This document shows, piece after piece, positions 16,747-41,608 of a DNA stretch of 64,000 bases. The notes under the pieces are model-generated. The model saw only the letters and a list, made by a program, of their open reading frames with translations. It was not told where the DNA came from and did not search any database. Both the position numbers and the translations under genes were made by a program. Within the stretch, counting starts at the first letter, position 1, and every line of letters begins with the position of its first letter. The stretch spans positions 678,527 to 742,526 of the forward strand of contig JAYQJO010000001.1 of the NCBI GenBank assembly GCA_038142205.1, given 5' to 3'. The DNA comes from Pseudomonadota bacterium. GTDB taxonomy: Bacteria; Pseudomonadota; Gammaproteobacteria; Eutrophobiales; Eutrophobiaceae.

Positions 16747-18008
16747 TTAATATATTTTTTCCCCTTCAGTTTTGGCAACAATAACTGCGCAACAACTGTC
16801 ACTAAATACGTTTACAGCTGTTCTTGTCATATCCAGAATCCTGTCCGTTACCAGAAGCAAGCCAATTCCTTCCAACGGTAAACCAATAACACCGAGAATA
16901 ACAGTAATTGCGACAAGACTGGCTGCAGGAATACCGGCAACACCGATTGATGTTAAAAGAGCGACAAGAACGATTGTAAACTGTGTTGTAAAAGTCAGAT
17001 CCAGACCATAAGCTTGAGCAATAAATATTGCAGCAACACACTCATATAAAGCCGTACCATCCATGTTGATGGTTGCCCCTAACGGTAATACGAAAGAAGT
17101 TGTCTGGTTTGATACGCCTGCCTTTTTTCTATACATTCCATAGTAATGGGTAATGTGCCTGAGGAAGACGCCGTTGAAAAAGCAGTAAGCATTGCCGGAG
17201 CCATCGTCGTGTAATGACTTAACGGGTTTATCTTTACAACAGTTTTTAATAATAAAGCCAGCGTTATAAATTTATGAAAAAGTAGTGCCAGTAATACAGT
17301 TATAAAAAATAAAAGCAAGGGCTGGAAAGCACTAAAACCAGTAGCCGTAATTGTTTTAGCCACAAGCCCAAATACACCGATGGGCGCAAACTTCATAACA
17401 AACATGGTTATTGCCATCATTGTGTTAAACACGCCTTGCCAGAAGTTTTCTAAAGCCTGTTTTTGTTGTCCAGCAAGTTGGCTCATAAAATAGCCAAATA
17501 ACATGCCGAAGAAGATGAGTCCAAGCATTTGACCTTCGGCTGCTGCTTTTACGATATTGGTCGGCACCATACGAAGAAAAACATCGGTTATATCACTGGC
17601 ACTGCGATCTTCAACACGTTCTAATTGAGAAGCGACTTCTGTATCTGTACTCAGATTGAGTATTTCTCCTGCCGGTTTCCCATCAACGATGCCAGGCGTT
17701 AGAACATTGACAAAAATTAGGCCGATAAGAATAGCTAATAGACTTGATAATAAATAAAAACCTATTGTTTTACTTCCCAGTCGTCCAAGGTTTTCACTAG
17801 CACCGATACTGGATATGCCGCAAATAATAGAGGAAAGCACAAGCGGCACGATGATCATCTTCAGCGCATTTAGAAAAAGGGTGCCGATAAAGCTAAAGAT
17901 GCTATAGAAAGTGACACTGCCTATAGCAGTGTCCTTATCTATCATTGCCCCAATCAGCATTGCCAAAATAATGGCAATAAGAATTTGCCAATGTAATTTC
18001 AGCTTCAT
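16747..18008 (-). pseudogene. Dicarboxylate/amino-acid:cation symporter (DAACS, GltP/SstT-like), split by a -1 frame change in a T6/A6 run at 17123-17128.
   Basis: The N-terminal ORF 17079-18008 and C-terminal ORF 16747-17136 overlap. The expected DAACS motif '...[13 protein letters not shown]|[27 protein letters not shown]' is restored if the A6 run (minus strand) is A7. Confidence 0.65.
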
Positions 18009-32086: not shown

Positions 32087-33540
32087 CTATCCGCGCATCC
32101 AGTTATGAAATTTTTCTACGAGTTTCAATAGACCTTGTGGCGCATTAGCTTTTTTCCAGACACCCGCCGTAAATTTATTGGCTTCTGATAGCGTAGGGTA
32201 GATATGTATCGTACCTAGTATCTTGTTCATGCCAAAGCCGTGTTTCATGGCACTGATGTATTCAGTTATTAATTCACCGGCATGATCACCAATAATCGTA
32301 ACGCCCAGTATTTTATCTTTGCCGGGAACGGTTAATACTTTAACAGAGCCATGAGCTTCGCTTTCGGCAATAGCGCGATCCAAATCATCAATTCCATAGC
32401 GTGTTACTTCATAAGCTATGCCTTTTTCCTTTGCTTCCAGTTCATTTAAACCGACGCGAGCGACTTCTGGATCAGTAAAGGTTGCCCAGGGAATAACAGA
32501 GTAATCCACTTTGAATTTTTTGAACTTGCCAAATAAGGCATTGACGGATGCATACCAAGCTTGGTGAGCAGCGGTATGGGTAAATTGATAAGGCCCGGCA
32601 ACATCGCCGCAAGCATAGATATTAGGAATAGAGCTTTGTAATTTTTCGTTTACGCGTATTGTTTTGTTTGGGTTTAACTCAACGCCGAGTTCTTCCAATC
32701 CGAAACCGCTGGTGTTTGCTGCGCGACCTACCGCAACAAGAATTTCATCAAACTCTATCTCAACTGTTTGTTCATTATACTCACAGACGAGTACCTTTTG
32801 TCCGTCACGATTAATCACTTCTTTTGCTAAATGATTCGTTCGAACATCAACGCCTTCATCAAGAAAACGTTGATTAACCATGGCGGATATCTCTTCATCT
32901 TCCCTGATCATTATACGCGGTAACATTTCAATTTGTGTTACTTGACTGCCTAAACGACAAAATGCCTGTGTTAACTCACAACCGATGGGTCCGCCGCCTA
33001 GAACAACAAGCCGTTTGGGTAAATCACGCATTTCCCAGAGATTGTCCGAAGTCAGGTAATTAATTTCATTTAATCCTTTTATCGGTGGGACAAATGGACG
33101 TGCGCCAGTAGCGATAATTATGCTACGCGTGCTCAGCGTTTTGCCATTGACTTCAACAGTCCAGGGAGAGGTTATCTTTGCTTCACCTTCAATGCACTCA
33201 ACGCCCAGGCTTTCATAACGTTCGATTGAATCATGTGGTTCAATTTTTTTTATCGTTGACTGAACACGTTCCATAACAGCAGTAAAGTCTATATTGGACT
33301 CAGGAACATTAATGCCAAATTCATCTGCACGTTTTATCAGTGATGCAACTTTGGCTGATTTGATGAGTGCTTTCGATGGAACACAACCCGTATTTAAACA
33401 GTCGCCTCCCATCTTATGTTTTTCTATTAGTGTGACCTTTGCATTTATTGCTGCAGCAATATAGGCCGAGACAAGACCGGCAGACCCCCACCAATGACAA
33501 TTAAATTACGATCAAATTTATTCGGTTTGGCTTGGCTCAC
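32087..33540 (-). CDS. FAD-dependent pyridine nucleotide-disulfide oxidoreductase (lipoamide dehydrogenase/MerA-like fold). The N-terminus is displaced by a -1 frame change in a C5 run at 33485-33489.
   Basis: The 441-aa ORF starts at 'MGGDCLNTGCVPSK' (the CxxxxC redox disulfide) and lacks an FAD-binding GxGxxG. Upstream, in another frame, is 'KFDRNLIVIGGG', then after the G/C run 'SAGLVSAYIAAAINAKVTLIEKHK'. A G6 in place of G5 restores 'VIGGGSAGLVSAY'. The probable GTG start at 33538-33540 overlaps the stop of the DedA gene. Confidence 0.7.
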
Positions 33541-35654: not shown

Positions 35655-36110
35655 TTATTTATCTCCTGATTCAAAAATATATTTACTGATTAACTCTTCA
35701 AGGTTGATTGACGGTTCGGTTTCAATGATTTCCATACCTGCTTCAACCATATCTTCACTACCACCAGCTGAAATTTTTATAAATTTATCACCGATAATAC
35801 CAGCGGTTCTTATTGATGCGATAGAGTCATCTGGTATTAGTATTTCTTTTGGTATACTTATACTGACATCAGCGAGATAGTTTTCCGTATCAAACTCAAT
35901 CCTTTTTACTTTACCAACAGTAACGCCTGCTATCTCGACGTAAGCGCCTTCACGTAAACCTGAGGCAGATGTAAATTTGGCTTTAATGACATATTCATCG
36001 TTATTAAATAAACCTACATCACCTAAACGTAATGCAAGAAAAGAAATAGCAATAATGCCAGCAAGCATGAATATGCCGACTAAGAGTTCTGTATGTTGTT
36101 TATCGTTCAT
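35655..36110 (-). CDS. mlaD: MCE-domain protein MlaD.
   Basis: 151 aa. An N-terminal TM anchor is followed by an MCE domain ('KFTSASGLREGAYVEIAGVTVGKV'). Confidence 0.85.
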   Translation of the reverse strand: MNDKQHTELLVGIFMLAGIIAISFLALRLGDVGLFNNDEYVIKAKFTSASGLREGAYVEIAGVTVGKVKRIEFDTENYLADVSISIPKEILIPDDSIASIRTAGIIGDKFIKISAGGSEDMVEAGMEIIETEPSINLEELISKYIFESGDK

Positions 36111-36114
36111 AATT

Positions 36115-36903
36115 TTATAATATCAATGCACTGATTAAGTAATCACTAAAAAGAACTGCCATCGAAGAGAGGACAACAGATTCGGTTGTAATTCGACTTA
36201 CGCCATCCGAGCCATAGGCACCACGATTATCTATATGTAAATTAAATCCTTTATCGCATGCTATCCAGACAATTAATAAACCAAACACAATCGACTTGGA
36301 AAAACACATTAATATATCCCGGTTTAATATCGTGTCGGCCATGCCTTGAAAAAAAGAACCAGGACTGACACCAAATAAAATAACTCCGACAAAATAACCA
36401 CCGAAAACACCAACGACAATGAATATTGCTGTCAATATCGGTACGCAAATAACACCGGCTAATATTCGCGGAGCAAATAAATAACGGTAAGGATCAATTG
36501 CCATGCATTCCAATGCATCAATCTGGTTGTCAACACGCATAATACCGATTTCTGCACACATGGCTGAACCTGCACGTCCAATTACCATTAATGCTGTGAT
36601 TACGGGACCTAGCTCTCGAATCAGGCTTAAACCAACAGCGGAACCGAGTAAGCTAATGGAGCCAAAACGAAGTAATGTATCGTAGAACTGTAAAGCGATA
36701 ACCATACCGACAAACAAACCTGCAACAACAATAACCAACATCGAACGTGCGCCAATAAATGCAATTTGTTTGATTAGTGGTTTTAAAGAATAGGGCGGAG
36801 ATAAAATAGCTAAAATAGTTTCGTATAAAAATAATCCGGCAGTACCGAGACGTATCAATCGGTTTTCTATAGCAGATAGCGGTCGGACTTTAGTAGCGTT
36901 CAT
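36115..36903 (-). CDS. mlaE: ABC permease MlaE.
   Basis: 262 aa. MlaE/Ttg2B family, with 'GPVITALMVIGRAGSAMCAEIGIMRV..QIDALE'. Confidence 0.85.
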   Translation of the reverse strand: MNATKVRPLSAIENRLIRLGTAGLFLYETILAILSPPYSLKPLIKQIAFIGARSMLVIVVAGLFVGMVIALQFYDTLLRFGSISLLGSAVGLSLIRELGPVITALMVIGRAGSAMCAEIGIMRVDNQIDALECMAIDPYRYLFAPRILAGVICVPILTAIFIVVGVFGGYFVGVILFGVSPGSFFQGMADTILNRDILMCFSKSIVFGLLIVWIACDKGFNLHIDNRGAYGSDGVSRITTESVVLSSMAVLFSDYLISALIL

Positions 36904-37700
36904 TTATTTACGCGTCAGTTTATCTAGATAGTCATCTGCATCAACCATGTCTTCCATGGCCTTGCGTTCGAGCATATTGACAATTCTTGGGTCAGGCGAT
37001 TTTCTGATTATGTTTTTATCACCGGTAATAATCTGATGACCGTCATCCAATACAGTAATTCGATCTGCAATTTTAAAAGCACTATCCAGATCATGCGTGA
37101 CAACAACAATGGTCATATTAAGAGCATCACGTAATTGCAAAATTAAATCATCAAGTTCAGCCGAAGTAACCGGGTCAAGACCTGCTGAAGGTTCATCAAA
37201 AAAAGTACTTCCGGATCCATCACAACAGCTCTGGCTAAACCTGCTCGTTTTAACATGCCACCAGATAGTTCAGCAGGCATGAGTGTTTCACTATCACCTA
37301 AATTCATTAATTCAAGTTTAAGGCGAGACATAATGCGTATTGTATTTTTATCAAGCTTGGTGTGTTCGTGTAAAGGCAGTTCTACGTTTTCCTGAAGTGT
37401 CATCGAGCTGAATAAGGCGCCATTTTGAAAAGCAACGCCAATCCTACGTCGTAAAGCGTGCAACTCTTTCGTTTTTAGACGAGTTACTTCTTCATTCAGT
37501 AGTTTGATTGAACCTGATTTGGGTTTATTCAGGCCTATCATATGTCTTAATAGTGTACTTTTACCGGAGCCGCTATGCCCCATGATGACCATGATTTCCT
37601 TGTGGACTACATTTAAAGAAATATTCGACAGAATTTGTCTATCGCCATACCAGGTATTTAAACCTTCTATTTCAATAATGTTTTCCGGTGTTTCACTCAT
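36904..37700 (-). CDS. mlaF: ABC ATPase MlaF, interrupted by a -1 frame change in an A7/T7 run at 37198-37204.
   Basis: ORF 37143-37700 carries Walker A 'GHSGSGKST' and the signature 'LSGGMLKRAGLARA'. It then reads 'DPEVLF|LMNLQQ...'. The expected 'DPEVLFFDEPSAGLDP...' is restored when the run is T8. The downstream ORF 36904-37140 carries the H-loop 'VVVTHDL'. Confidence 0.75.
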
Positions 37701-37774: not shown

Positions 37775-39247
37775 TTATAAAGAAGGGTTTGTTATACGAC
37801 TGCTTATCTGTTTTGCCAATTGTAATGATTCATTCAACTCGATTTCGGATAGTTCACTTTTAAGCCTGTCTCTGCGATGTAAATCCATTGCATTTCCAGT
37901 GTAGGCAACTACTTCATACCATGCCAATGCTTGCACCTTATTTTGTTCTACTCCTGTACCATTGAGGTACATTGTTGCCATATTTCTTTGAGCAATGGTA
38001 TGGCCTTGTTCAGCTGCTTTTCGATACCATTCGGCGGCCTGTTTATTATCTTGCCGCACGCCTTCACCATATGCGAATGCAACGCCCAGCTTATATTGTG
38101 CAAGTACATAACCTTGTTCTGCTGCTTCATAAAAAAGATTAAAAGCAGTGCGATCATTCTGAGGAACACCATCACCAAAAGTATAGGCTAAAGCTTGCTC
38201 ATATAACGCTTCAACAGAGTTATCATTTTCAGTTTGTTCATCATCAAGACTAACTAATTGTGAAGTGTTAGTTGTTTCTACTTCTGTTTCTTCAATAATA
38301 GCTACTTGTGTTTTTTGTATATTAGCAAGATTGTGCTCAGCTGAAGTATGTCCTTGTTCTGCTGCCATGGCATACCATTCTGCAGCTTGCTCATCGTTTT
38401 GTTCGACACCTTCTCCCATTAACTACATGTTGCCTAAACTGTACTGCGCATCAATATTGCCTTGTTGCGCCGCGCGTCTATACCAAAGCGCGGCTTGAAT
38501 GTAGTCTTGTTTAACATCATTACTCGCATAATATAACGTGCCTAATTGATACTGAGCATCAGCATCACCTTGCGTAGCTAATGAACGGATACGATCTATT
38601 TCAGACAATGTTGGAACATTTTCGGCAAGTTCTTCATTAACTGTTGTTTCAATTTCTGTTGTAGATTCGATAGTTTCACTATCAGCTAAGGCAATAGTTT
38701 CTGTGTTTTCATCACTACTACCGAATAAGCGTGAAAAGAACCCAGGTGATTCTTCCTCTATAGCAGGTTCACTTATTTCTATATCAGCGATTAATCCAGA
38801 CTCTTCATTAGAAGCAAGTTCAAATGTTTCTATAGGCTCTTCAACTATTTCTTCGGCACTTGCTGTTTTTGTTTCTGTAGTAACGATTTCTTCATCATTT
38901 ACAGATTCTACTTCTTTTATTTCATTCGTTGTTTGAAGAGCGATAGCATCAACGTCTTCTTTCGTTTTTTGTTGGTCATCATTACCAAATAACCGTGAAA
39001 AGAAACCTGGTGAATTTTCTTTTTCTGCTATCGTTGTGTTATTGGGTTCTATCTCTGTTATTAACTCTGTTTCTTCTTCATTAAAAATAACTTCGTTTTC
39101 TATTGTTTCATCTACGATTGTAGTCTTTTCGACTTCAACAACTTTATTTTCTTCTGTTTCGTCAGTCTCTAAAGTTGCAAAATCATCTTGTTTTTCTTCT
39201 TCCTCATTAATTGCCTCAGTTTTTGCTGTTTCTTGTTCTGTTGCCAA
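37775..39247 (-). pseudogene. Sel1-repeat protein with an in-frame TAG at 38423-38425. The N-terminal half is acidic low-complexity and contains two 'SPGFFSRLFG' motifs. It may be the continuation of the upstream Sel1 gene.
   Basis: ORFs 38423-39247 and 37775-38419 are in the same frame, separated only by the TAG. Read through, the sequence is 'AQYSLGNM-*-LMGEGVEQNDEQAAEWYAMAAEQGH', a canonical Sel1 repeat in which Tyr (TAY) is replaced by TAG. Upstream there is no ATG. The frame is open back to the A7 run at 39298-39304. Confidence 0.6.
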
Positions 39248-39285
39248 CGCATCAAGTTTTAACTGATTTTCTCTGTTTAATGCTT

Positions 39286-41136
39286 CTAATTTTTCCAGGT
39301 TTTCAAGATTTTTTTAGCAGCAGAATGTCCTTGGTCACTTGCCAAACTATACCATTTGGCAGCGTTCGCATTACTCTGCTCTACATTCTCCCCAAGAAGA
39401 TACATATTACCTATGCTGTATTGTGCATCAACATTGCCTTGGTCGGCCGCTTTCTTATACCAGTTATAAGCTTGTTCTATGTCTTTATTAACGCCTTTAC
39501 CCACATAATAAAGAGAACCTAGATGAGCTTGCGCCTCATCATCTCCTGCGTCTGCTAATGCTTTAAAATGATTGTAAGCGTCATCATAATTATTATTAGC
39601 GAGAGCACGACGACCATCATCTATACTGTGCTGTTCTATATTTGTTTCTGCTTTTTCAGCTAGTCCAGTTTCTTCTACAACTGTTTGAGATTCTAATTCG
39701 GAAGTTTCAGTTTTGTTGCTACTAAACAAACGGCTAAAGAAACCACCTGATGGTTCTTTTTCTTCAGACGCTAAATCGTTTGAACTTCCTCCATTATCTA
39801 TTTCTTCTTGTGTTGTGTCTGCCCAGTTATTTTCAGCGGCCTCTATTTGTCCTTCGGTTTCTTCTACCTGAGTAGCGAGTTCTATTTCTTTTTCTTCATT
39901 ATCTATTTCTTCCTGTGTTGTATCTGCACTGTTATTTTCAGCAACGTTAATTTGTTCTTCTGTTTCCATTGCTTCTGTCTTTTTAATGTCAGGTTCAGCA
40001 GTAATTTCTTCAACAGGTTTTTGTTTAATAACTTCTGTAACTATTTCTTCTTCAGGTTTATCTGCTATTTCATTTTTAGCAATTATCTTTTCAACTTCAG
40101 GTTCGACCGTCGTTTCTATAGTTGCTTCCGGTTTTACAATATCCAGTTCAGATTCATCAAGTGATAATAATCCTTCTTTTTCTACACTGAACAAGGGTTC
40201 TTTTTTCGTTTCTTTAGATTCTTCAACTTGTTGTTGTGGCGTTTGTTCTATTTCAGCAATAGTTTCTTCTTCAACGGTATCTTCTATTACTTCTTGTTTT
40301 TTTGTTGGAGTAGACTCAGAGCTTGTTTCTGAAACTGAAGGTATTTCCGGTTTTGTTTGAATAGCACGCGTTGCAACGTTGGCTGCTGCGGAACGTTCTA
40401 AACTGGCTAATTCATTAGTTGCAGCAGCATAACCTTGATCTGATGATTGTCTGAACCAGCGTTTAGCTTGAGCATAGTTTTGTTCTACGCCTTTACCTGA
40501 ACGATACATAGTGCCATGGTTATATTGTGCTGTTGCATCACCGCGATCTGCTGCTAAACGGTACCAACGAACTGCCTGAGAATAATCCTGCTCTACACCT
40601 TCGCCTGTATGATACATACTGCCCAAATGAACTTGCGCGCGTGCATAACCTTGTTCCGCCGCTTTTTTGAACCAGCTTGCGGCTTCTTTCTGGTCTTGCG
40701 ACACACCTTCACCATAAGCATAAGAAATACCAAGACTGTATTGTGAAACGACATGTCCCTGTTCAGCGGCTCGACGGTACCAGATTGCAGCTTCTGTTAA
40801 ATTTTGTTTTACGCCTTCACCAAAAGCATAAGATACTGCGAGATTATATTGTGCATCGCGATTGCCTTGCGTTGCTGCTTTTCGATACCAAAAAACAGCA
40901 TTTTCAAAACTTTGAGGGACACCTTCGCCAGCATAATACATATAGCCGAGATTCGCTTGAGCGTTAGCATCACCGTTTTCAGCTAATTCCGTAAATTCTT
41001 TTACGGCCTTTTCATAGTCACCTCTGGAAAGTGCATTATTGGCGCTGTAAATATCTGCCTGAGCAGTGAAGGTGTATATTGAAAGTAGGGCGATTGACAG
41101 AAAACGTGTCATTGTTACCAATCCTTTATGAACCAT
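39286..41136 (-). CDS. Secreted Sel1-repeat protein. It has Sel1 repeats, then an acidic linker with 'GGFFSRLFS', then more Sel1 repeats.
   Basis: 616-aa ORF. The signal peptide is 'MTRFLSIALLSIYTFTAQA' (likely start ~41112). It has at least 10 Sel1 units of the type 'AQxxLGxMYxxGxGVxQDxxxAxxWYRKAAEQG'. Confidence 0.7.
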   Translation of the reverse strand: MVHKGLVTMTRFLSIALLSIYTFTAQADIYSANNALSRGDYEKAVKEFTELAENGDANAQANLGYMYYAGEGVPQSFENAVFWYRKAATQGNRDAQYNLAVSYAFGEGVKQNLTEAAIWYRRAAEQGHVVSQYSLGISYAYGEGVSQDQKEAASWFKKAAEQGYARAQVHLGSMYHTGEGVEQDYSQAVRWYRLAADRGDATAQYNHGTMYRSGKGVEQNYAQAKRWFRQSSDQGYAAATNELASLERSAAANVATRAIQTKPEIPSVSETSSESTPTKKQEVIEDTVEEETIAEIEQTPQQQVEESKETKKEPLFSVEKEGLLSLDESELDIVKPEATIETTVEPEVEKIIAKNEIADKPEEEIVTEVIKQKPVEEITAEPDIKKTEAMETEEQINVAENNSADTTQEEIDNEEKEIELATQVEETEGQIEAAENNWADTTQEEIDNGGSSNDLASEEKEPSGGFFSRLFSSNKTETSELESQTVVEETGLAEKAETNIEQHSIDDGRRALANNNYDDAYNHFKALADAGDDEAQAHLGSLYYVGKGVNKDIEQAYNWYKKAADQGNVDAQYSIGNMYLLGENVEQSNANAAKWYSLASDQGHSAAKKILKTWKN

Positions 41137-41287: not shown

Positions 41288-41608
41288 TCAAGCTAATAAA
41301 CCACCAATAAGTGCGCCGATCAATAAAGGTGGAATATAGAATACATAGAGCAGCAGTCCGCTACCCGCGAGTATTGCGCCAATAAAAGGTAGCGTCGTAA
41401 GCATTGTTCCAGCAAAGAACAAAGCAGCTCCAACAACAATACCCGGTAACATTGCTGCCATAATGCCTGCCATGATACCGCCTGCACGCTTACCACCAAC
41501 GATACCTGCAATCAGTGAACCGATACCCGGTAACCAAAATAAAAGGAGGGATATAATGAACATCCATATCATGCCCATTGTGATGCTGCCGTTATTACCG
41601 TCTGTCAT
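41288..41608 (-). CDS. Small Gly/Ala-rich integral membrane protein (106 aa).
   Basis: Three predicted TM helices rich in GxxxG-like spacing. No family recognised. Confidence 0.4.
   Translation of the reverse strand: MTDGNNGSITMGMIWMFIISLLLFWLPGIGSLIAGIVGGKRAGGIMAGIMAAMLPGIVVGAALFFAGTMLTTLPFIGAILAGSGLLLYVFYIPPLLIGALIGGLLA

What the first reader, a model, noticed from the sequence alone, without database searches (positions are those of the whole stretch)
37775..41136. A ~3.4 kb Sel1-repeat mega-locus, possibly one ~1,100-aa protein, with a recurring GFFSRLF(G) motif in acidic linkers and an in-frame amber codon
Two or three minus-strand ORFs encode blocks of Sel1/TPR-like repeats, and each block is followed by a long Glu/Thr/Ile-rich low-complexity linker. 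Inside the linkers the short motif (S)(P/G)GFFSRLF(G/S) occurs three times: 'SGGFFSRLFSSNK', 'SPGFFSRLFGNDD' and 'SPGFFSRLFGSSD'. A conserved hydrophobic-basic peptide that recurs within otherwise disordered acidic sequence looks like a short linear interaction or membrane-insertion motif. The ORF 39286-41136 ends at an A7 run. Adding one base fuses it in-frame to the next ORF ('...SAAKKNLENLEKLEALNRENQLKLDALATEQE...'). Separately, a TAG at 38423-38425 interrupts a perfect Sel1 unit ('YSLGNM*LMGEGV', where the consensus has Tyr). This is a substitution, not a homopolymer error. It is the only break in the window that looks like a genuine nonsense mutation. The overall size and the signal peptide resemble the large secreted Sel1 proteins that intracellular bacteria use at the host interface.
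Basis: partly seen in the sequence, partly recalled or inferred. Interest (0 to 1): 0.62.

Follow-up and report, generated by a model that had tools for sequence, protein, structure and literature searches.

The report
Sel1 protein with MinD-like membrane motifs
The three reading frames are one gene for an exported repeat protein of about 1,110 residues, broken here probably by sequencing errors. Its floppy acidic linkers carry three copies of a short peptide nearly identical to the membrane anchor of the cell-division protein MinD, a design shared by many uncultured gammaproteobacteria, usually next to a lipid-transport operon.

Summary
Window 41136-37775 (minus strand) is one Sel1-repeat gene split by a one-base-short A-run (39309-39315; A8 in a 93%-identical relative) and a TAG (38423-38425; TAT in two relatives). 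Two other genes in the window have the same −1 homopolymer break, and the source assembly has a 2.66 Mb contig. The frameshift is therefore almost certainly an assembly error. The TAG is either an error or a very recent mutation: pN/pS downstream is 0.09-0.11.

GFFSRLF is not chance. G-F-F-x-[RK]-L-F-[GS] occurs 252 times in 87 family members, against about 2 in shuffles. It always lies in fast-evolving disordered linkers, and the three window copies use different codons. It matches the membrane-targeting sequences of MinD (KGFLKRLFGG) and RocS (KKGFFARLFGGK).

The family has a conserved Sec signal peptide, so I read it as a periplasmic Sel1 scaffold held on a membrane surface by several weak amphipathic anchors. 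In 7 of 10 loci, counting the window, it directly precedes mlaFED.

A host-interface effector role is not supported. No membrane binding has been tested.

The parts
37775..41136 (-). One Sel1-repeat gene. It gives 1120 aa from the ATG at 41136 and 1112 aa from the ATG at 41112, after restoring one A and reading TAG as Tyr. The stop codon is at 37775-37777.
   Evidence: Uninterrupted orthologues in L001 and L002. P0001 is 1073 aa, 68% identical, 99% coverage.
41056..41112 (-). Probable true start (ATG at 41112, with AAGGA 9 nt upstream) and Sec-type signal peptide MTRFLSIALLSIYTFTAQA, with cleavage expected before DIYSA.
   Evidence: sequence. Orthologues start at MTRFLS, and the n-h-AxA pattern is conserved across the family. 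No signal-peptide predictor was available, so this rests on inspection.
40387..41055 (-). Sel1 block A (about six repeats, aa 28-250).
   Evidence: Pfam Sel1. AF2 pLDDT 96-98 with alternating helix pairs. PDB sequence hits 6ok3, 4bwr and 8sxq.
39622..40386 (-). Linker 1 (aa 251-505): acidic, Glu/Thr/Ile-rich and disordered. It includes a 105-nt tandem duplication at 39754-39963.
   Evidence: Composition and net charge -49. AF2 pLDDT below 50 for residues 262-497. Duplication D5. pN/pS 0.7-0.8.
40135..40206 (-). Second conserved linker peptide, KKEPLFSVEKEGLLSLDESELDIV (aa 311-334).
   Evidence: Family consensus KKPLFSVEKxDLLxLDxSxLDI, with K and L nearly invariant in 40 homologues. Function unknown.
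39724..39744 (-). Motif copy 1, GFFSRLF (aa 465-471; context EKEPSGGFFSRLFSSNK).
39311..39621 (-). Sel1 block B (three repeats, aa 506-609).
   Evidence: Pfam. AF2 pLDDT 92-98.
39309..39315 (-). A7 homopolymer, one base short: this is the frameshift site. It lies inside a predicted continuous helix of about 45 residues that follows block B.
   Evidence: A8 in L001 and AAAAGCAA in L002. Helix 579-624 in the model of orthologue P0001. The same kind of -1 break occurs in mlaF (T7 at 37198-37204, T8 in L001) and in an SDF symporter (A6 at 17123-17128).
38603..39187 (-). Linker 2 (aa 651-845): acidic and disordered, carrying motif copies 2 and 3.
   Evidence: Net charge -57 for aa 611-850. The orthologue model has pLDDT below 50 here except at the motifs. 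pN/pS 0.43-0.66.
38987..39007 (-). Motif copy 2, GFFSRLF (aa 711-717; context EKENSPGFFSRLFGNDD).
38723..38743 (-). Motif copy 3, GFFSRLF (aa 799-805; context IEEESPGFFSRLFGSSD).
38303..38602 (-). Sel1 block C (aa 846-945).
   Evidence: Pfam. Orthologue model pLDDT 90-97.
38423..38425 (-). In-frame TAG at the conserved Tyr of a Sel1 unit.
   Evidence: TAT in both L001 and L002. TAG is a normal stop in the window. No suppressor tRNA in the window. pN/pS downstream is 0.09-0.11.
37778..38221 (-). Sel1 block D plus C-terminal helices (aa 973-1120), preceded by the short acidic linker 3 (38222-38302).
   Evidence: Pfam best stretch 1012-1046. Orthologue model.
35655..37700 (-). mlaF (broken at T7, 37198-37204), mlaE and mlaD, directly downstream on the same strand. 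This is conserved neighbourhood, not part of the gene.
   Evidence: Pfam. The same order occurs in L001, L002, L007, L009, L011 and L012. No terminator-like site was found in the 74-nt gap.

Best explanation
This is a single gene for an exported Sel1-repeat scaffold of about 1,110 residues. A Sec signal peptide is followed by four well-folded Sel1 solenoid blocks, joined by long acidic disordered linkers.

The linkers carry three copies of G-F-F-S-R-L-F-(G/S). This short peptide has the same sequence pattern and hydrophobic face (F,F..L,F) as the amphipathic membrane-targeting sequences of MinD, RocS and FtsY.

Proposed mechanism, by inference:
1. After export, each motif folds into a two-turn helix on contact with a phospholipid surface and inserts shallowly.
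2. Several weak anchors on flexible tethers add up to stable but reversible attachment. [quoted passage not shown]
3. The Sel1 blocks remain free to bind protein partners.
4. The conserved position directly upstream of mlaFED suggests the partners or the process concern envelope phospholipid handling.

The two breaks in this window do not reflect separate genes. The A-run frameshift is an assembly error. The TAG is an error or a very recent mutation.

What is shown: gene continuity, motif conservation, linker disorder, the conserved signal peptide, the synteny, and the identity of the pattern to published membrane-targeting sequences.

What is inferred: export, membrane binding, which membrane is bound, and any link to Mla.
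For: One gene:
- L001 (about 93-95% nt identity) and L002 have single ORFs with A8 and TAT at the two break sites.
- P0001 is 1073 aa with 99% coverage.
- The frameshift falls inside one predicted 45-residue helix.
- There are no internal promoter or terminator signals above chance: 5 promoter-like sites against 12.6 expected.

Assembly error:
- Three independent -1 breaks at A/T runs occur in the window: this gene, mlaF and an SDF symporter.
- The window's ORF2 (P0130) comes from an NCBI assembly with a 2.66 Mb contig.

Motif is real:
- 252 observed against about 2 expected in 87 homologues.
- Logo: acidic tract, then (P/S)-K-K-G-F-F-S-R-L-F-G-K-K-D.
- It is always in linkers, 1-7 copies per protein.
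- The three window copies differ at synonymous sites, including AGC versus TCA for Ser.
- Linkers have pN/pS 0.4-0.8, against 0.09-0.22 for Sel1 blocks.

Membrane reading:
- E. coli MinD targeting sequence is KGFLKRLFGG (PMC5471200).
- RocS KKGFFARLFGGK is reported to associate with lipid bilayers, from NMR on vesicles and simulations (PMC13042908).
- FtsY lipid-binding segments are KRGFFSWL and EGFFARLKRS (PMC3189734).
- Core hydrophobicity and hydrophobic moment are 0.75/0.62 here, 0.62/0.68 for MinD and 0.80/0.60 for RocS.
- The motifs are the hydrophobicity maxima of the linkers.
- AF2 places short helices exactly at the three motif sites of P0001, in otherwise unstructured linkers, with no docking onto the Sel1 blocks.

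Use outside the cytoplasm is plausible:
- A signal peptide is conserved family-wide.
- A motif-only profile found 211 proteins (E<=1e-3) in 1.84 billion representatives.
- These include histidine kinases with the motif between TM1 and TM2 next to the CHASE3 sensor domain, a signal-peptide SPOR protein, and about 12 lipobox proteins.
- They also include cytoplasmic cases: N-terminal extensions of DotU/TssL, and one FtsY.

Synteny: the Sel1 gene is followed by mlaF-mlaE-mlaD in the window, L001, L002, L007, L009, L011 and L012. It is followed by the VTT/DedA gene without mla in L006 and L010.
Against: - No experiment on any family member was found in the paper library searched.
- In this window's copies the flanks are neutral to acidic: net charge +2, -1 and 0 over 13 residues, against +4 for MinD, RocS and the wider-family consensus. 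The linkers carry -49 and -57. This should weaken binding to anionic lipid and may point to a different partner or a need for divalent cations.
- AF2 of the window's own first ORF gave no helix at motif 1 (pLDDT about 35).
- The motifs are internal, whereas the MinD and RocS sequences are C-terminal.
- The signal peptide was judged by eye only.
- The synteny may be inherited gene order within one clade. Two loci lack mla and one lacks everything.
Confidence: 0.55

Rival explanations
1. The motif is a protein-binding ligand rather than a lipid anchor. It would dock into the concave groove of Sel1 blocks, in the same or in neighbouring molecules, or onto another periplasmic partner. That would give a multivalent self-associating network or condensate.
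For: - Sel1/TPR solenoids commonly bind short peptides (general knowledge).
- Motifs and Sel1 blocks always co-occur in this family.
- The acidic flanks in this clade are poorly suited to anionic lipid.
Against: - AF2 with a 40-sequence alignment leaves the motifs undocked, with pLDDT roughly 35-60.
- Motif number varies from 1 to 7 while the number of Sel1 blocks stays at about four.
- The same motif recurs in about 88 proteins with no Sel1 repeats (DotU, histidine kinases, SPOR, lipoproteins), which argues for a partner common to all of them, such as the bilayer.
Confidence: 0.17
2. The TAG is a true, recent nonsense mutation in this organism. The gene would then make a 904-residue exported protein lacking the last Sel1 block and a half. 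The locus would be at the start of decay, or variable within the population.
For: - It is a substitution, not a homopolymer slip.
- TAG is a normal stop here.
- No suppressor tRNA is present in the window.
Against: - Codons after the TAG show pN/pS 0.09-0.11, the same as other Sel1 blocks.
- Both relatives have TAT.
- The assembly demonstrably contains errors in neighbouring genes.
Confidence: 0.3
3. These are three separate genes, each with its own start, making independent Sel1 proteins.
For: Three ORFs with possible start codons exist in the sequence as given.
Against: - Orthologues are single ORFs.
- ORFs 2 and 3 would lack signal peptides and ribosome-binding sites.
- ORF 3 would begin inside a Sel1 unit.
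- The ORF 1/2 junction lies in one predicted helix.
- There are no internal promoter signals above chance.
Confidence: 0.03
4. It is a secreted host-interface effector of the kind intracellular bacteria use.
For: - Large size, a signal peptide and Sel1 repeats.
- PDB sequence hits include chain 6deh, deposited as 'TPR repeat protein, protein-protein interaction'. From memory this is Legionella LpnE; I did not check it.
Against: - The nearest relatives are environmental Thiotrichaceae and gammaproteobacterial MAGs.
- Neighbours are mla, DedA/VTT and oxidoreductase genes, with no secretion-system genes.
- The similarity is generic to Sel1 repeats.
- All curated family scores are below cut-off.
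Confidence: 0.04

Closest known systems
MinD C-terminal membrane-targeting sequence (E. coli KGFLKRLFGG)
   Same: - Nearly the same peptide: G-F-[FL]-x-[RK]-L-F-G.
- The wider family also shares the preceding acidic tract and K-K (MinD ...EEEKKGFLKRLF).
- Similar core hydrophobicity and hydrophobic moment.
- A single copy binds weakly, so multiple copies are needed. For MinD this is achieved by dimerisation (my own knowledge).
   Different: - MinD has one copy at the extreme C-terminus of a cytoplasmic ATPase.
- Here there are three internal copies (1-7 in relatives), in disordered linkers of a protein with a signal peptide.
- The flanks in this window are not basic.
RocS membrane-targeting sequence of Streptococcus (KKGFFARLFGGK)
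   Same: The core GFFxRLFG is identical apart from x. The paper reports that the RocS peptide associates with lipid bilayers as a kinked amphipathic helix, using NMR on vesicles and simulations (PMC13042908).
   Different: RocS is a cytoplasmic DNA-binding protein of a Gram-positive bacterium with one C-terminal copy.
FtsY acidic A-domain with lipid-binding helices (E. coli KRGFFSWL and EGFFARLKRS)
   Same: A G-F-F-x-[RW]-L type lipid-binding segment. It sits beside a long acidic disordered region (my own knowledge of the E. coli A-domain). One SRP54/FtsY-type protein was recovered by the motif profile.
   Different: FtsY is a cytoplasmic GTPase with no Sel1 repeats, and its motifs are not repeated in the same way.
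Bacterial periplasmic or secreted Sel1-repeat proteins: EsiB (4bwr), the Legionella protein 6deh, HcpC (1ouv), 6ok3, plus the NCBIfam families MerG, ExoR, MotX and AlgK
   Same: Signal peptide plus Sel1 solenoids. There is strong sequence similarity of the repeat blocks, E 4e-102 to 3e-32.
   Different: - The solved chains matched are 135-547 residues.
- The NCBIfam profiles are 211-448 positions.
- From memory, these proteins are compact solenoids without long acidic linkers or GFFxRLFG motifs; I did not scan their sequences.
- All four NCBIfam scores are far below cut-off: 257 vs 350, 127 vs 450, 92 vs 330 and 83 vs 700.
C-terminal amphipathic anchors of periplasmic penicillin-binding proteins (PBP5, PBP6)
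   Same: A precedent, from my own knowledge, for an exported protein held on the periplasmic face of the inner membrane by an amphipathic helix rather than a transmembrane segment.
   Different: The sequences are unrelated, there is a single C-terminal helix, and this was not tested here.

Membership tests
Sel1 repeat proteins (Pfam PF08238) | Multiple Sel1 repeat units scoring above the Pfam gathering threshold. | tested here: met
   368 bits against a cut-off of 30.7, with 12 stretches. AF2 gives helix-pair solenoids at pLDDT above 90.
MinD/RocS-type amphipathic membrane-targeting sequence | Sequence pattern G-F-[FL]-x-[RK]-L-F-G. | tested here: met
   All three window copies are GFFSRLF(G/S). 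Published sequences: KGFLKRLFGG and KKGFFARLFGGK.
MinD/RocS-type amphipathic membrane-targeting sequence | Amphipathic helix with a hydrophobic face and a comparable hydrophobic moment. | tested here: met
   Core H/muH is 0.75/0.62, against MinD 0.62/0.68 and RocS 0.80/0.60. Short helices are predicted at all three motif sites of orthologue P0001, but not at motif 1 in the window ORF1 model.
MinD/RocS-type amphipathic membrane-targeting sequence | Basic residues flanking the hydrophobic core, for binding to anionic lipid. | tested here: not met
   Net charge is +2, -1 and 0 for the window copies, against +4 for MinD and RocS. The feature is met in the wider family, whose consensus is K-K-GFFSRLFG-K-K.
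MinD/RocS-type amphipathic membrane-targeting sequence | Position at the C-terminal end of a cytoplasmic protein. | tested here: not met
   The copies are internal (aa 465, 711 and 799 of 1120), in a protein with a conserved signal peptide.
MinD/RocS-type amphipathic membrane-targeting sequence | Demonstrated binding to lipid bilayers. | not testable with these tools
   Needs liposome binding or in vivo localisation.
NCBIfam equivalogs MerG, ExoR, MotX, AlgK | Whole-protein score above the curated cut-off. | tested here: not met
   Orthologue P0001 scores 257 vs 350, 127 vs 450, 92 vs 330 and 83 vs 700.
Sec-exported (periplasmic) proteins | N-terminal signal peptide with a positive n-region, a hydrophobic core and an AxA cleavage site. 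| tested here: inconclusive
   MTRFLSIALLSIYTFTAQA|D, and the same pattern in most of the 120 listed homologues. This was judged by inspection, as no dedicated predictor was available. There is no lipobox cysteine.
Legionella EnhC/LpnE-type host-interface Sel1 proteins | Orthology beyond the generic repeat, and occurrence in host-associated lineages. | tested here: not met
   The best full-length relatives are environmental MAG proteins. Similarity to 6deh is confined to the repeats. No EnhC sequence was compared directly.

The most novel reading that the evidence does not exclude
GFFxRLFG may be a general, compartment-independent membrane-tethering module that bacteria also use outside the cytoplasm. 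In this uncharacterised gammaproteobacterial family, several copies on acidic disordered tethers would hold a periplasmic Sel1 scaffold on a membrane surface. With tethers several hundred residues long, it could even span the gap between inner and outer membrane. It would then work with the adjacent MlaFED phospholipid transporter, and perhaps the DedA/VTT protein, in envelope lipid homeostasis.
Probability: 0.3. Interest if true: 0.7.

Novelty: new variant of a known kind. Interest (0 to 1): 0.5.

Why it matters
The MinD-type membrane-targeting sequence is a textbook device of cytoplasmic proteins. Here the same peptide is used several times over, inside disordered linkers, in a protein family that carries a signal peptide. 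A motif-only search finds it in other proteins that appear to be extracytoplasmic: sensor loops of histidine kinases, a SPOR protein and lipoproteins.

If these copies do bind membranes, this would be a simple and widespread way of attaching periplasmic proteins to a bilayer without a transmembrane helix or a lipid modification. It would also define a new accessory candidate for the Mla lipid-transport pathway. How Mla components are organised across the periplasm is, as far as I know, still unsettled.

On the practical side, the case shows that the split annotation of this locus, and of mlaF and a symporter nearby, comes from homopolymer errors in a long-read assembly and not from gene decay.

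Tried and rejected
- **Word-indexed profile search with the 42-column motif alignment.** Only 37 candidates and one weak hit, so it was uninformative. The exhaustive HMMER search worked instead.
- **Structure prediction of the repaired 1120-aa protein.** I modelled the window's first ORF and the orthologue P0001 instead.
- **Exact look-ups of the window's ORF1 and ORF2.** Both were meant to find the source record and found nothing. The cluster look-up showed only that ORF2 comes from an NCBI assembly with a 2.66 Mb contig, so the organism name and sequencing platform remain unknown.
- **Stop-codon reassignment or programmed read-through of TAG.** Rejected: TAG ends 12 of 43 long ORFs and no suppressor tRNA is in the window.
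- **Motif recurrence as a by-product of recent DNA duplication.** Rejected: the three copies share only 64-80% nucleotide identity and use different codons.
- **FFAT-like motif ('two phenylalanines in an acidic tract').** I considered this from memory and dropped it. Position 5 is Arg or Lys rather than a small residue, and the wider family has basic flanks.
- **Literature searches.** Searches for the motif strings, for Sel1 combined with periplasmic amphipathic targeting sequences, and for Sel1 with Mla or Beggiatoaceae found nothing describing this family.

Full report
**What is in the sequence**

On the minus strand there are three consecutive ORFs: 41136-39286 (616 aa), 39247-38423 (274 aa) and 38419-37775 (214 aa).

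- The first two are separated by a frameshift. An A7 run lies at 39309-39315, and inserting one A continues the frame as ...SAAKKNLENLEKLEALNRENQLKLDALATEQE....
- The second and third are separated only by TAG at 38423-38425, inside a Sel1 unit (GNM*LMGEGV).
- The repaired product is 1120 aa from the first ATG. A second ATG at 41112 has AAGGA 9 nt upstream and matches the start of the orthologues (MTRFLS...), so 1112 aa is more likely.
- Pfam finds 12 Sel1 stretches (E 1.2e-113).
- GFFSRLF occurs at residues 465, 711 and 799.
- The two long linkers are Glu/Thr/Ile-rich with net charges of -49 and -57.

Two small corrections apply. The A-run is 21 nt before the stop rather than at it. Only two of the linkers are long.

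**One gene, broken by errors**

Two related metagenome-assembled genomes carry the orthologue as a single ORF.

- L001 is a Thiotrichaceae MAG, 93-95% nucleotide identity. L002 is a gammaproteobacterial MAG, about 84-87% identity. At the two break sites they have A8 (or AAAAGCAA) and TAT.
- In the AlphaFold model of P0001, the position of the frameshift lies inside one continuous 45-residue helix that follows the second Sel1 block.

Between the window and L001, the only coding gaps that are not multiples of three are A7-versus-A8 here and T7-versus-T8 in mlaF (37198-37204). A third -1 break at an A-run splits a sodium:dicarboxylate symporter at 17123-17128. The window's second ORF is on record from an NCBI assembly whose contig is 2.66 Mb long. 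Together these fit homopolymer under-calling in a long-read assembly.

The TAG is a different kind of lesion, a T-to-G change.

- TAG is an ordinary stop codon here (12 of 43 long ORFs), and there is no suppressor tRNA in the window, so recoding is not indicated.
- The 215 codons after it have pN/pS of 0.09-0.11 against both relatives, the same as the other Sel1 blocks.
- It is therefore a base error or a very recent mutation. I cannot tell which.
- There are no promoter-like or terminator-like signals above chance inside the gene.

**The motif is a conserved short linear motif**

- The pattern G-[F..]-[F..]-x-[RK]-[L..]-[F..] occurs 1-7 times per protein in 99 of the 120 listed homologues.
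- In the 87 with the family's N-terminus it occurs 252 times, against 2.0 expected from shuffling (maximum 8).
- The logo is an acidic tract, then (P/S)-K-K-G-F-F-S-R-L-F-G-K-K-D, with G, F, F and F essentially invariant.
- It always lies in the linkers between Sel1 blocks, and the copy number varies while the four blocks stay constant.
- The three copies in the window differ at synonymous positions. Examples are Ser AGC/TCA/TCA, Arg CGT/CGG/CGC and Leu TTG/TTA/TTA. They share only 64-80% nucleotide identity. The peptide, not the DNA, is what is conserved.
- Linkers evolve fast (pN/pS 0.4-0.8), whereas Sel1 blocks do not (0.09-0.22).
- AlphaFold gives the Sel1 blocks pLDDT above 90 and the linkers below 50.
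- In the orthologue model the only secondary structure in the disordered stretches is a short helix at each of the three motif sites. Their confidence is slightly raised, and they do not pack against the Sel1 blocks. In the model of the window's first ORF, motif 1 has no helix.

**What the motif resembles**

A full-text search for the motif strings returned four papers.

- The E. coli MinD membrane-targeting sequence is KGFLKRLFGG (PMC5471200).
- The Streptococcus RocS membrane-targeting sequence is KKGFFARLFGGK. The paper studies its membrane association by NMR on vesicles and by simulation, and aligns it with MinD (PMC13042908).
- A table of lipid-binding helices lists MinD ...EEEKKGFLKRLF and two FtsY segments, KRGFFSWLGFG and EGFFARLKRS (PMC3189734).

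The eight-residue core here has the same mean hydrophobicity and hydrophobic moment as the MinD and RocS cores. The motifs are the most hydrophobic points of the linkers.

One clear difference remains. In this window and its close relatives the flanks are neutral or acidic (net +2, -1, 0). In MinD, RocS and the wider family they are basic (+4).

**Which side of the membrane**

The family has a conserved N-terminus of the Sec signal-peptide type (M-x-R-F-L-S-I-A-L-L-S...A-Q-A | D-I-Y-S-A), with no lipobox. This was judged by inspection.

To see whether the motif is used outside the cytoplasm elsewhere, I searched a 42-column profile of the motif and its flanks against 1.84 billion representative proteins. 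It returned 211 hits at E<=1e-3 and 31 at E<=1e-10. Of the 131 new proteins in the best 150:

- 21 are further Sel1 proteins.
- 88 are longer than 140 residues and have one or no Sel1-like unit by a crude pattern count.
- Pfam on 87 of those finds DotU/TssL in ten, histidine-kinase domains in five, CHASE3 in three, SPOR in two and SRP54/FtsY in one.

The layouts differ by context:

- In nine DotU proteins the motifs lie N-terminal to the DotU domain and its membrane anchor. That is the cytoplasmic side by the accepted TssL topology.
- In the histidine kinases P0198 and P0201 the motif lies between the first and second transmembrane segments, next to the CHASE3 sensor domain. Three more proteins have the same TM1-motif-TM2 layout. 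That is the extracytoplasmic side.
- P0140 has a signal peptide and SPOR domains flanking motif-bearing linkers.
- About a dozen hits have lipoprotein signal sequences.

The motif thus appears on both sides of the inner membrane. That fits a partner present on both sides, most simply the bilayer itself.

**Neighbourhood**

- The gene is followed after 74 nt, on the same strand, by mlaF, mlaE and mlaD. mlaC is on the other strand, and a VTT/DedA gene and a pyridine-nucleotide disulfide oxidoreductase lie further on.
- The same order holds in L001, L002, L007, L009, L011 and L012. These include family members only 38-46% identical to the query.
- In L006 and L010 the Sel1 gene is followed directly by the VTT and oxidoreductase genes without mla. 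In L008 the neighbourhood is unrelated.
- This is suggestive of a link to envelope lipid handling. It could equally be inherited gene order.

**Interpretation**

The best reading is a periplasmic Sel1 scaffold kept at a membrane surface by several weak amphipathic anchors carried on long acidic tethers. Gene continuity, motif conservation, disorder, the signal peptide and the match to known membrane-targeting sequences are shown. Export, lipid binding, which membrane is bound and any connection to Mla are inferred.

The main rival is that the motif is a ligand for the Sel1 grooves or for another protein.

- Against it: there is no predicted docking, motif and block numbers are unmatched, and the motif occurs widely in proteins without Sel1 repeats.
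- For it: the flanks in this clade are unusually acidic.

- The relatives are environmental.
- The similarity to solved Sel1 structures is generic to the repeat.
- No curated family reaches its cut-off.

**Novelty**

Sel1 proteins and MinD-type targeting sequences are both well known. I found no description of this family, or of multi-copy use of this motif in exported proteins, in the paper library. I class it as a new variant of a known kind, of moderate interest, resting entirely on computation.

Noticed in passing
window 37198-37204 (mlaF) and 17123-17128 (SDF symporter): Two more genes are split by -1 errors at A/T homopolymers. mlaF has T7 where L001 has T8. A sodium:dicarboxylate symporter has A6 where the frame needs A7, and its Pfam SDF match is split 1-269 / 267-386. 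This points to systematic homopolymer under-calling in the assembly.
   Followed up: yes
window 40135-40206 (aa 311-334 of the Sel1 protein): There is a second conserved peptide in linker 1, KKEPLFSVEKEGLLSLDESELDIV. The family consensus is KKPLFSVEKxDLLxLDxSxLDI, nearly invariant at K and L in 40 homologues. It is probably another short linear motif, of unknown function.
   Followed up: partly
window 41288-41608 (minus strand): This is a 106-aa glycine-rich membrane protein with no Pfam or NCBIfam match. It is conserved just upstream of the Sel1 gene in L003, L007 and L012, with a shorter ORF in L011. A terminator-like hairpin at 41280-41265 separates it from the Sel1 gene.
   Followed up: partly
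proteins P0141, P0144, P0154, P0174, P0176, P0194, P0205, P0225, P0227 (motif-profile hits): These type VI secretion DotU/TssL proteins have N-terminal extensions of 350-730 residues carrying two or three GFFxRLFG motifs. They look like an uncharacterised membrane-tethered variant of TssL.
   Followed up: partly
proteins P0198, P0201 (also P0193, P0216, P0221): These histidine kinases have the GFFxRLFG motif inserted in or after the extracytoplasmic CHASE3 sensor domain, between the two transmembrane segments.
   Followed up: partly
L009 2465-4444: In one family member's locus, an AsmA/YhdP-like gene (a putative inter-membrane lipid transporter) lies about 1.5 kb upstream of the Sel1-mlaFED cluster.
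   Followed up: no
window 32087-33412 (minus strand): This pyridine-nucleotide disulfide oxidoreductase matches its NCBIfam profiles only from about position 34-69 onward, so its N-terminus may also be cut by an error. Homologues of 482-486 aa (451 aa and cut at the locus end in L011) follow the VTT/DedA gene in related loci.
   Followed up: no
window 39754-39963: There is a 105-nt tandem duplication (73% identity) inside linker 1, encoding EQINVAENNSADTTQEEIDN... twice. It shows how the linkers grow and shrink by unit duplication.
   Followed up: partly
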